Source: the human T2T-CHM13v2.0 reference genome, Homo sapiens. Taken from it: a stretch of 64,000 nucleotides of DNA. Location of the stretch: NCBI RefSeq assembly GCF_009914755.1, contig NC_060941.1; one strand, 5' to 3'. The position numbers and the translations under genes are program-made. The notes under the pieces are model-generated. The model searched no databases. It saw only the letters and a list, made by a program, of their open reading frames with translations, and was not told where the DNA came from. Below, one piece after another: positions 1 through 18,103 of the stretch (positions are counted from its first letter, which is position 1; the number at the start of each line of letters is the position of its first letter).

Positions 1-164
1 GTGGGATACAGACTGGCTAGGGACTGATGGAGGAGCCACGAAACTGCAGGTCTCTGATAATTGAAGGCCAGTGCAGTGCAGGCAATGTTGTGAGAGCTTG
101 GTGGTTAAAGTGGCAAACAGGTTCATAGTGAAGTAGCACTAGGAGATGAGAAAAGTCCAGGACA

Positions 165-566
<402 letters not shown>

Positions 567-15312: not shown

Positions 15313-16201
<889 letters not shown>

Positions 16202-16810
16202 ACAAAGGGGATCTTTATCCTTGCCAATGGGACTATGAAAAGAAGGAACACTTTAGAAAACAATTTGGCATTATCTACTCAAAATGAAATACGCGTACCC
16301 TTGATTTAAGAATTCCACCCCAAGTATATACCCTAGAGAACCTCTTACAGTACATGCAAATCAGGAAACAAGGATAGCCACCCTCTATAACAGAAAAAGA
16401 ACAAACACCCCTACACCAATTCAGAAAATAACTGCAATGAGAATAAGGAGTAGAGCGGTAATTTACCCAGTGTAATAGCACACAGGTGAAATGTACCTAT
16501 TTGCAACACAGATCAATTTGAAGAATATTGAGCAATAAAAGTAACAGAAGAATGCATTCATTATCATTCCACATATAAACAGTTCAAAATCATGAAATAC
16601 ATTGTTTAAACATGCAAATTTGGTAAAATTATGAAGAAAAGCAATAGTAAACCCAGAGTTAGGAATATGAGAAAGGGACAGAAGAAAGCAGCGGAGTGTA
16701 GGGGACAGAAGATAATGGTAATGTTCATTTTCTTAAAATAGGTAGATTCAAGATGTGCCATGGATTGTGATTTTTCAGACAGTGTATTTCGGTTTCTCCC
16801 TCAACCCCCA

Positions 16811-17044
16811 CAAATCAATAGGTCTTTTATTGAGTAATTTAAATATCACGAATAGGTCTTACGAATCATCTGGCATCTTGTTTCTGTAGCTGGACAACTC
16901 TTAGACTTTATTCACCAACTTGCAGAACTATTCCGTTTTCAGAGACATAGATATTCAATAACAATTTTCTGCTATGTTTTTAACTGTTGCAGCTTGCTGA
17001 ATCAAAGCAGCTGAATTTGAAACCAGCTCAATGTTGTATCCTTT
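16811..17044 (-). pseudogene. Processed RPL9 3' fragment (C-terminal codons, stop, 3'UTR with AATAAA), fused to the U3 fragment
   Basis: Translates [23 protein letters not shown] / frameshift / IYVSENGIVLQVGE* versus RPL9 [23 protein letters not shown]...IYVSEKGTVQQADE*; ends AATAAAAGACCTATTGATTTG like RPL9 mRNA. Confidence 0.9.
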
Positions 17045-17113
17045 GGTGCTCTACACCTTCAGAAAACTTCTATAGTAACAAACTATAGAAATGATCCCTG
17101 AAAGGATAGTCTT
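17045..17113 (-). pseudogene. U3 snoRNA pseudogene fragment, nt 1-70 (5' part of a chimeric retrocopy)
   Basis: Minus strand AAGACTATCCTTTCAGGGATCATTTCTATAGTTTGTTACTATAGAAGTTTTCTGAAGGTGTAGAGCACC versus U3 AAGACTATACTTTCAGGGATCATTTCTATAGTGTGTTACTAGAGAAGTTTCTCTGAACGTGTAGAGCACC. Confidence 0.93.
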
Positions 17114-17339
17114 CACTTCAGTTTCTATCATTTCAATATTTAATTTTAAAAGAAGAGACCAAATAACCCACATGTGAGCAATTAATCTATATTATTTCCT
17201 CTTCTAAGGTGGATGGGTGCCTTCCATCTTTGACTCCTTTCTAGACCTAACATAAAACTGTGGACAGATGTTATACAATAAAAGGGAAGTTTTTAACTAC
17301 CGGCCCTATCTGTAAAGACCAAGGAGATAGAAGACCAAC

Positions 17340-17651
17340 TTTTTGTTTGTTTGTTTTTTGTTTTTTTCTGAGATAGAGTCTTGCTCTGTTGTCCAGGCTG
17401 TAGTGCCACGGTGCAATCTTGGCTCACTGCAACCTCCGTCTCCCAGGTTCAAGCGATTCTCCTCCCTCAACCTCCTGAGTAGCTGGGATTACAGGCACAC
17501 GCCACCAGGCCTGGCTAATTTTTGTATTTTTAGTAGAGGGGAGGTTTCACCATGTTGTCCAGGCTAGTCTCAAACCCCTGATCTCAGGTGTTCCACCCGC
17601 CTCGGCTTCCCAAAGTGCTGGGATTACAGGCATGAGCCACCACGCCTGGCC
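17340..17651 (-). mobile_element. AluS
   Basis: TSD agaagaccaac. Confidence 0.92.
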
Positions 17652-18103
17652 AGAAGACCAACCTTAAAGGAATAGGTAGATGACTAATAGTCTTGCCTAT
17701 ACCCTACATAATACAGTATATGAAGATACATTAGTGCCCAAGTGATCAGGATGCTAGATCAAAAAGTCAAACAAAGAAACTAAACTGAAATAACAACCTT
17801 ATCATTAGAAACTTTACCATCAGTGAAAAGAAACAGACCAGCATACTAACCATATGAATGCAGAATATCTAGTCAAAAACAGCTGGGTGTCTTAGGAGAA
17901 AAGCAAGCAGATTATACAGTAGTTTTGAGAACGAGACTACAGGATAATACCATTAAAAAATGAAGTCAATGAAAAAATGTAATTCAAATACCCAAATCAC
18001 ACAATTTCCAAAAACTAATAGGATACTTACAAAAAAACAAAAGTATGATATTTAAAATAAACTTACCCTGAAATAAGTGAAGTTACTAGCTGCTAAATAA
18101 ATG

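What the first reader, a model, noticed from the sequence alone, without database searches (positions are those of the whole stretch)
16811..17113. Chimeric retrocopy: U3 snoRNA (nt 1-70) fused to the 3' end of RPL9 mRNA
Seen: on the minus strand, 69 nt matching the exact 5' end of U3 run directly into the last ~45 codons, stop and 3'UTR of ribosomal protein L9 ([18 protein letters not shown]...IYVSE). The junction reads GCACC|AAAGGA. U3 continues GCACC-GAAA and RPL9 reads CTT-GAAGGA, so reversing one CpG decay gives a shared GAA microhomology. Known: L1-mediated snRNA/mRNA chimeras arise by template switching or RNA ligation, and truncated U3 pseudogenes classically end near nt 69-70. Inference: this records a U3 snoRNA and an RP mRNA together in one reverse-transcribing particle. 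No poly(A) tail or clear TSD is visible, which is atypical for TPRT. If the same junction recurs elsewhere, the fusion may have spread as a small SINE-like family or reflect a recurrent U3:RPL9 RNA interaction.
Basis: partly seen in the sequence, partly recalled or inferred. Interest (0 to 1): 0.8.

Follow-up and report, generated by a model that had tools for sequence, protein, structure and literature searches.

The report
Old U3–RPL9 chimeric retrocopy, single copy
A dead, ancient DNA copy made when a reverse transcriptase copied the tail of the ribosomal protein L9 message and then the first 70 bases of U3 snoRNA; it is a real but ordinary member of a class described since 2003.

Summary
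On the minus strand, 17113-17045 is U3 snoRNA nt 1-70 (Rfam 45.6 bits, gathering score 34). It runs without filler into 17043-16811, the last ~233 nt of spliced RPL9 mRNA, which ends exactly at the mRNA's cleavage site. The junction reads CACC|AAA|GGA; both parents carry GAA there, so one CpG decay gives a 3-nt microhomology.

The junction is unique in the T2T genome: a 30-mer with up to 3 mismatches finds 1 place. No SINE-like family exists.

It is not unusual. Of 35 non-gene U3 5' copies examined, 24 stop at U3 nt 69-77. Ten of these abut LINE-1, and one other (L041) abuts a different mRNA 3' end. Published work (Weber 2006; Doucet 2015; Moldovan 2019) already describes 3'-truncated U3 fused to L1, Alu or processed mRNA.

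There is no A-tail. A 13-nt G-rich filler sits between the RPL9 end and a weak candidate target-site duplication (AGAAACYGAA, 9/10, P about 0.014-0.036).

The copy is old: 20/231 private changes, and it carries variants shared with older RPL9 retrocopies.

Most likely it arose in one L1-type event, with a template jump onto U3 just 5' of its terminal helix. Interest is low.

The parts
17114..17126 (-). Candidate 5' copy of the target-site duplication, AGAAACTGAA(GTG), directly upstream of U3 nt 1
   Evidence: the repeat finder D6. The 9/10 match is reached at 178 of 12698 same-geometry places in the window and in 96 of 3000 shuffles. The single mismatch is a C/T at a CpG.
17045..17113 (-). U3 snoRNA nt 1-70 (69 nt, one 1-nt deletion). 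Covers the 5' domain only; boxes B, C, C' and D are absent.
   Evidence: Rfam RF00012 at 45.6 bits. BLASTN to the real U3 genes. 3 mismatches in 69 nt against the consensus of 23 other truncated copies.
17042..17044 (-). Junction triplet AAA. U3 reads GAA (nt 71-73) and RPL9 reads GAA here, so these bases could come from either parent.
   Evidence: U3 gene sequence and RPL9 exon sequence CTTGAAGGAAAT compared with the window. The G-to-A change follows a C, i.e. CpG decay (inference).
16811..17041 (-). 3'-terminal ~233 nt of spliced RPL9 mRNA: last ~45 codons (frameshifted), stop TAA 16910-16908, 3'UTR, AATAAA 16831-16826. It ends at the mRNA cleavage site.
   Evidence: three HSPs on the real gene L021; alignment with 11 retrocopies and the gene exons; uL6 residues 148-169.
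16798..16810 (-). 13-nt G-rich filler TGGGGGTTGAGGG where a poly(A) tail is expected. Origin unknown.
   Evidence: an A-rich run at this position in most of the 11 other retrocopies; an Alu in L010. Searches found no significant match to anything else in the window.
16785..16797 (-). Candidate 3' copy of the target-site duplication, AGAAACCGAA(ATA)

Best explanation
This is one ancient retroposition event of the LINE-1 type. Reverse transcription began at the 3' end of a spliced RPL9 mRNA and copied about 233 nt. The growing cDNA then moved onto a U3 snoRNA, landing at nt 70-73 (a shared GAA), and ran to U3 nt 1. The bipartite cDNA was fixed in what is now the last intron of UBE2G1, in the sense orientation.

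The landing point is the last unpaired stretch of U3's 5' domain, immediately 5' of the helix that the RNA's 3' end forms with nt ~75-80. This would explain why most U3 retrocopies in this genome stop at nt 69-77.

The product has no snoRNP-binding boxes and a frameshifted RPL9 fragment, so it is a dead pseudogene.

Shown: the identity of both halves, splicing of the RPL9 part, direct same-sense junction, single copy, and old age. Inferred: the enzyme (L1 ORF2p), the order of copying, and the template jump.
For: - Both halves are identified.
- The RPL9 part lacks two introns and ends at the cleavage site used by the other retrocopies.
- The halves are joined directly in the same orientation, with a possible 3-nt GAA overlap.
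- Breakpoints recur. Of the 40 best U3 5' matches in the genome (169 candidates, 40 scored), 5 are genes and 35 are non-gene copies. Of those 35, 11 are full length and 24, including the window, end at nt 69-77.
- Of the 24 truncated copies, 10 abut LINE-1 sequence. Evidence: ORF2p hits; RVT_1; BLASTN. Perfect TSDs of 21, 18 and 12 nt lie after the L1 tail in L003, L024 and L025.
- L041 is a second U3/mRNA-3'-end chimera, with an A-rich tail and a TSD-like repeat.
- Rfam's consensus structure places the terminal helix at model 76-80 paired with 215-219, just after the point where the window's U3 alignment stops.
- A flanking repeat is best under the one-event model: 96/3000 shuffles, against 443/3000 for U3 inserted alone and 1484/3000 for RPL9 inserted alone.
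- The divergence of the two halves is compatible: 3/69 versus 20/231 private changes, Fisher P 0.31.
- Literature passages: U3 chimeras are 3'-truncated (Doucet 2015); U3 is found fused to L1, Alu or processed mRNA by template switching (Weber 2006); Moldovan 2019 section 18.
Against: - There is no poly(A) tail; a 13-nt G-rich filler of unknown origin stands in its place.
- The TSD is short and only weakly significant: 0.014-0.048 empirically and 0.036-0.093 by shuffling, depending on the measure.
- If all 31 RPL9 differences from the majority consensus are counted, the halves differ in divergence at P 0.049. That consensus reflects younger mRNA versions, since 11 of the 31 differences are shared with other copies.
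- A 3-nt microhomology is expected by chance in roughly 6% of random junctions (my estimate). Five L1 junctions I could inspect show about 0-2 nt.
- No orthologous empty site could be examined.
Confidence: 0.6

Rival explanations
1. This is the same single insertion, but the two RNAs were joined before reverse transcription. A U3 fragment cut near nt 70-73 would have been ligated (for example by RtcB) to a 5'-OH fragment of RPL9 mRNA, and the chimeric RNA then retrotransposed.
For: Moldovan 2019 (passages seen) shows RtcB ligation for U6/L1. The paper explicitly leaves open that 3'-truncated U1, U3, U5 and 5S chimeras arise after an endonucleolytic cut that leaves a ligatable end. The 2025 preprint notes that U3 fragments rather than full-length U3 recombine with L1. 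The tight clustering of ends at nt 69-77 would also fit a preferred cleavage site.
Against: No evidence here for a U3 cleavage product. Ligation does not need the GAA overlap seen at this junction or the ACC overlap at L041. The DNA alone cannot distinguish this from a template jump.
Confidence: 0.2
2. The cDNA was captured at a DNA break without L1 endonuclease, or with an extra short template first. Priming would have occurred on a deadenylated RPL9 3' end through a few bases of homology (target ...CCA with mRNA ...UGG). The G-rich 13 nt is then either target DNA or a third, unidentified template, and the AGAAAC repeat is chance. This concerns the integration step and can be combined with either origin of the chimera.
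For: No A-tail, although the RPL9 part ends exactly at the cleavage site. The window reads GATTTGTGGGGG where the mRNA ends GATTTGG. The flanking repeat is only 9/10 with P 0.014-0.036. Tripartite chimeras are reported (PMC2104539, abstract and background read). That endonuclease-independent insertions lack tails and TSDs is recalled, not read here.
Against: The 9/10 repeat sits within 3 nt of the U3 start and 13 nt of the RPL9 end, and its only mismatch is a CpG transition. If real, it implies a staggered cut, as in ordinary target-primed insertion.
Confidence: 0.15
3. Two unrelated retrocopies landed next to each other: a truncated U3 pseudogene and a 5'-truncated RPL9 pseudogene.
For: Both kinds of element are individually common: 24 truncated U3 copies among 35 examined and at least 30 RPL9-like places. 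Counting all differences, the halves differ in divergence at P 0.049. Weber 2006 shows that adjacent snoRNA and other retroposons often have separate TSDs.
Against: - There is not one base between the halves, and the join falls in the U3 nt 69-77 hot zone.
- No A-tail or duplication separates them.
- Flank tests for either half inserted alone are at chance (443/3000 and 1484/3000).
- Stand-alone truncated U3 copies carry their own TSD or tail right after nt 69-76 (L002, L004, L027, L033).
Confidence: 0.05

Closest known systems
Bipartite chimeric retrogenes made by LINE-1 (Buzdin et al. 2002/2003 class): small nuclear or nucleolar RNA at the 5' side, 5'-truncated L1, Alu or mRNA at the 3' side
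   Same: Same architecture. The 5' part starts at nt 1 of a small RNA, the 3' part is a 5'-truncated polyadenylated-type RNA, and the two are joined directly in the same orientation. U3 is 3'-truncated, as reported for U3 chimeras (Doucet 2015 passage; Weber 2006 passage; Moldovan 2019 passage; features listed in PMC2104539 background).
   Different: No A-tail and only a weak TSD. I could not check whether this exact locus is in the 2003 list, because that paper (PMC169886) is not held.
U3/LINE-1 chimeric insertions (2025 preprint PMC11838501: 8.5% of 253 catalogued chimeras, mostly truncated U3, 95.5% sense)
   Same: Same U3 fragment and orientation. Ten such loci were found here with U3 ending at nt 69-76.
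   Different: The 3' partner here is a ribosomal-protein mRNA, not LINE-1. That catalogue covers LINE-1 partners only (passages seen; its supplements are closed).
Self-primed truncated U3 pseudogenes (Bernstein, Mount and Weiner 1983; cited, content recalled)
   Same: The same U3 segment (nt 1 to about 70) is retained. L002 and L004 in this genome show that form: U3 1-69 and 1-73/77, directly flanked by 17- and 16-nt repeats and without a tail.
   Different: Here the U3 end is followed by RPL9 mRNA sequence, not by the second copy of a target duplication (model B at chance).
RPL9 processed pseudogenes
   Same: Spliced, ends at the normal cleavage site, with a decayed reading frame.
   Different: Severely 5'-truncated (233 nt), capped by U3 sequence, and lacking the A-tail that most other copies keep.

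Membership tests
LINE-1-made bipartite chimeric retrogene | 5' part is a copy of a cellular small RNA starting at its nt 1 | tested here: met
   U3 nt 1 at 17113. The U3 part is 3'-truncated, as the literature states for U3 chimeras.
LINE-1-made bipartite chimeric retrogene | 3' part is a 5'-truncated copy of a polyadenylated RNA reaching its 3' end | tested here: met
   The last ~233 nt of spliced RPL9 mRNA, up to the cleavage site.
LINE-1-made bipartite chimeric retrogene | Both parts joined directly in the same transcriptional orientation | tested here: met
   No filler at 17045/17041. Both parts are on the minus strand.
LINE-1-made bipartite chimeric retrogene | Whole chimera flanked by one pair of short direct repeats (10-20 bp) | tested here: inconclusive
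   AGAAACTGAA versus AGAAACCGAA match 9/10, or 10/13 if extended. P is 0.014-0.048 empirically and 0.036-0.093 by shuffling.
LINE-1-made bipartite chimeric retrogene | A-rich tail at the 3' end | tested here: not met
   TGGGGGTTGAGGG follows the RPL9 end. Most of the 11 other RPL9 retrocopies have an A-rich run there.
LINE-1-made bipartite chimeric retrogene | Insertion at an L1 endonuclease-type site (TTTT/AA-like; consensus recalled) | tested here: inconclusive
   If the TSD is real, the bottom strand reads TTCT/AT at the nick (read). The site is only loosely similar to the consensus and depends on the TSD call.
Functional U3 snoRNA gene | Complete RNA with the 3' domain and its boxes and terminal helix | tested here: not met
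   Only model positions 1 to about 76 align credibly. BLASTN to U3 stops at nt 73.
Self-primed truncated U3 pseudogene | U3 nt 1 to about 70 directly bracketed by its own target duplication | tested here: not met
   The 5' flank versus the sequence after U3 is at chance: 443/3000 and 1640/3000 shuffles.
Amplified SINE-like family sharing this junction | Several genomic copies with the same U3/RPL9 breakpoint | tested here: not met
   The 111-nt junction query is spanned only by the window itself (40 of 113 candidates scored). The 30-mer with up to 3 mismatches finds 1 place in 3.1 Gb and 0 in the control.
RPL9 processed pseudogene | Intron-less copy of the mRNA | tested here: met
   Three HSPs on the real gene, separated by about 212 and 314 nt of intron, are contiguous in the window.

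The most novel reading that the evidence does not exclude
The tail-less, G-rich 3' end may mark a non-canonical event. One version is a three-template product: an unknown 13-nt template, then RPL9, then U3. The other is an endonuclease-independent patch of a DNA break using a deadenylated RPL9 mRNA. Combined with the nt 69-77 pile-up of U3 ends, this would make U3 retrocopies a natural footprint of which part of the U3 snoRNP a reverse transcriptase can reach in vivo.
Probability: 0.12. Interest if true: 0.35.

Novelty: new member of a known kind. Interest (0 to 1): 0.15.

Why it matters
It matters little by itself. The locus is a clean, datable example of the rarer U3/mRNA form of L1-type chimeric retrocopies, and RefSeq annotates only its U3 part (LOC124904156). 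Together with the 23 other truncated copies examined, it shows that acceptor or breakage sites on U3 cluster within about 8 nt, just before the terminal helix. That is a structural regularity worth a systematic count. Nothing suggests function, amplification or a specific U3-RPL9 interaction.

Tried and rejected
- **Amplified family.** Rejected: the junction is unique.
- **Flanks as part of a repeat that would reveal the empty site.** Rejected: both flanks occur only once in the genome.
- **G-rich filler as an Alu fragment or a local copy.** Only an 11-nt match (E 0.81) to one Alu, and pattern matches at the chance level of 2 versus 1.5 expected. Dropped.
- **Filler as RPL9 read-through.** The gene's downstream sequence (ACCTTCTT...) differs. 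Dropped.
- **GTG before U3 nt 1 as part of the transcript.** The real genes read GTT there. One other chimera (L005) also has GTG and 22 do not. Treated as chance or part of the TSD.
- **Pfam on the L1 C-terminal ORFs.** Gave no family, so I used PDB ORF2p matches instead.
- **Buzdin 2003.** Could not be read, so it is unknown whether it lists this locus.
- **Earlier findings of this scan.** Not open.
- **Junction microhomology in L1 chimeras.** Five junctions could be inspected and show about 0-2 nt. Too few and too diverged to support a rule.

Full report
**What is there**

Read on the minus strand, the stretch 17113-16811 has two parts.

*U3 part.* The first part is the 5' end of U3 snoRNA.
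- Rfam's U3 model (RF00012) scores 45.6 bits against a gathering score of 34.
- Only model positions 1 to about 76 align with high posterior probability. The reported span down to 16939 is a forced global alignment over unrelated sequence.
- Against the five real U3 genes, found at C17:19.01-19.14 Mb, the window matches U3 nt 1-73 at 92%.
- RefSeq's LOC124904156 (17038-17113) is this fragment.

*RPL9 part.* The second part, 17043-16811, is the last ~233 nt of RPL9 mRNA.
- It matches 11 fetched RPL9 retrocopies at 81-86%.
- It matches the real RPL9 gene on C4 (L021) as three separate pieces whose introns are missing in the window. The source was therefore spliced mRNA.
- Its translation matches uL6/RPL9 residues 148-169 of solved ribosome structures (E 2.1e-05). 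It then loses frame through a 4-nt deletion.
- It ends at ...AATAAAAGACCTATTGATTTG, the cleavage site after which most of the 11 other retrocopies carry an A-rich run.

**The junction**

The window reads GAGCACC-AAA-GGATAC. U3 genes read GAGCACC-GAA-AACC. The RPL9 exon reads CCTT-GAA-GGAAAT. By my estimate a 3-nt overlap arises by chance at about 6% of random joins, so this is suggestive only.

**Copy number**

- A 111-nt query across the junction found U3-only matches (query 1-55..66) and RPL9-only matches (58-109). Only the window itself spanned both (40 of 113 candidates scored).
- A 30-nt junction pattern with up to 3 mismatches has one place in the 3.1-Gb assembly and none in the reversed control.
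- The SINE-like family idea is refuted.

**Context in the same genome**

A query of U3 nt 1-75 gave 169 candidates, of which 40 were scored. Five are the genes and one is the window. I fetched the other 34.

- Eleven are full-length retrocopies (nt 1 to 209-217).
- Twenty-three, plus the window, stop at U3 nt 69-77.

Classification of the 24 truncated copies:

| Class | Count | Loci and evidence |
|---|---|---|
| Abut LINE-1 sequence | 10 | L003, L005, L023, L024, L025, L032, L037, L045, L047, L048. Named through ORF2p matches in PDB, RVT_1 and BLASTN to those copies. L045 is weak (68%) and partly read by eye. Perfect 21-, 18- and 12-nt TSDs lie beyond the L1 tail in L003, L024 and L025. |
| Followed by nothing or a short filler, then an A-rich run | 8 | L027, L028, L030, L031, L033, L039, L043, L044 |
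| Directly bracketed by 17- and 16-nt repeats, without a tail | 2 | L002, L004 |
| Abuts ERV integrase-like sequence | 1 | L029 |
| Unclear | 1 | L049 |
| Abut an mRNA 3' end | 2 | The window, and L041 |

For L041, the partner matches a unique place on C3 at 94%. That place continues without a tail, while L041 has AATAAA, an A/CA-rich tail and a TSD-like repeat.

The window's breakpoint and architecture are therefore typical. This sample is the best-scoring quarter of the candidates, so the proportions are not genome-wide.

**Why nt ~70**

In Rfam's consensus structure, the helix that pairs the RNA's 3' end (model 215-219) with model 76-80 starts right after the point where the window's U3 alignment ends.

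Inference: the 5' domain up to about nt 74 is the only stretch a reverse transcriptase can copy once it lands next to, or starts from, that helix. This would account for all three forms: the tail-less self-primed form (Bernstein 1983, recalled), the tailed form, and the chimeras.

**Ends of the insertion**

There is no A-tail. After the RPL9 end come 13 nt, TGGGGGTTGAGGG (16810-16798). They match nothing else in the window beyond chance and are not RPL9 downstream sequence.

Then comes AGAAACCGAA (16797-16788), which repeats AGAAACTGAA (17126-17117), lying 3 nt before U3 nt 1. The one mismatch is a CpG transition.

| Test of the flanking repeat | Result |
|---|---|
| 9/10 match reached at same-geometry places in the window | 178 of 12698 (0.014) |
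| Other measures, same empirical null | 0.038-0.048 |
| Shuffles of the flanks | 0.036-0.093 |
| Model: whole chimera as one event | 96/3000 shuffles |
| Model: U3 inserted alone | 443/3000 |
| Model: RPL9 inserted alone | 1484/3000 |

The one-event model is favoured, but the TSD is not proven. Both flanks are unique in the genome, so no paralogue shows the empty site.

**Age**

- The RPL9 part is the most diverged of the 12 copies compared: K2P 0.149 to the majority consensus, against 0.040-0.107 for the others.
- Eleven of its 31 differences are shared with other copies, mostly the older ones (L010, L017, L018, L019). These reflect an earlier version of the mRNA. Twenty of 231 are private.
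- The U3 part has 3 mismatches in 69 nt plus a 1-nt deletion.
- The halves do not differ significantly on private changes (Fisher P 0.31). They do so marginally if all 31 differences are counted (P 0.049).
- With commonly used neutral rates (recalled), this means tens of millions of years. I cannot date it better without orthologues.

**Mechanism and rivals**

The best reading (0.6) is one L1-type event with a template jump from RPL9 mRNA to U3.

The rivals are:
- The same event from a pre-ligated RNA (0.2). DNA evidence cannot separate this from the template jump.
- A non-canonical integration: break repair or a third short template. This explains the missing tail but not the flanking repeat (0.15). 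It concerns the integration step, so it can combine with either origin.
- Two independent neighbouring insertions (0.05).

**Comparison with what is known**

- Weber 2006 (passage) states that U3 or U6 sequences fused to an L1, an Alu or a processed mRNA arise by L1 RT template switching.
- Doucet 2015 (passage) notes that U3 chimeras are 3'-truncated.
- Moldovan 2019 (section 18 passage) says the same and leaves ligation open.
- The 2025 preprint (passages) counts U3/LINE-1 as 8.5% of 253 chimeras, mostly truncated and in sense orientation.
- The original catalogue (Buzdin 2003) is not held, and the preprint's supplements are closed. I therefore cannot say whether this locus is already listed.

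**Verdict**

The locus is a real, correctly read but ordinary relic: a new or unlisted member of a known kind. It has one unexplained detail, the G-rich filler in place of a tail.

Noticed in passing
L041 (G000:C17:11983664-11985264), U3 at 1501-1429 (-): A second U3/mRNA chimera. U3 nt 1-70/73 is joined to about 190 nt of a unique 3' end that matches C3:153295487-153295667 at 94%. It has AATAAA, an A/CA-rich tail, a TSD-like repeat (ATCTTAACTCT versus ATCCGTAACTCT) and a possible ACC overlap at the junction.
   Followed up: partly
L029 (G000:C15:36820610-36822210), U3 at 101-169 (+): U3 nt 1-69 runs directly into an open frame with a retroviral integrase DNA-binding domain (PF00552, E 6e-10). 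This is either a U3 copy inserted in an ERV or a U3/ERV-RNA chimera. It was only observed.
   Followed up: no
Loci L022, L026, L035, L036, L038, L040, L042, L050, L051: Full-length U3 retrocopies mostly carry a short 3' trailer (TTCCCAT.. or TTTTC..) after ...GAGTGGT and then an A-run. This suggests they derive from 3'-extended, adenylated U3 precursors, not from mature U3.
   Followed up: no
U3 nt 33 in all loci: All 24 truncated and most full-length retrocopies read T at U3 nt 33 (TAGTTYR), whereas the five present-day chr17 genes read G (TAGTGTG). Either the source gene or the gene cluster has changed since these copies were made.
   Followed up: no
L010-L020 (RPL9 retrocopies), alignment: RPL9 retrocopies fall into older and younger sets that differ at shared sites. 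One example is AACAAC versus AATGAC in the coding part; there are several 3'UTR sites as well. These trace the evolution of the RPL9 mRNA. L014 used a cleavage site 8 nt further downstream that matches the gene's flank.
   Followed up: partly
window 16826-16831 (-): The retrocopy places an AATAAA signal in the sense orientation inside the last intron of UBE2G1. I did not test whether it is ever used.
   Followed up: no
window 15500-16207 and 17333-17712: Alu copies flank the locus. They give below-threshold Rfam hits to Metazoa_SRP and to Alu-derived miRNA families (mir-3135, mir-1268, mir-619). These are ordinary.
   Followed up: no
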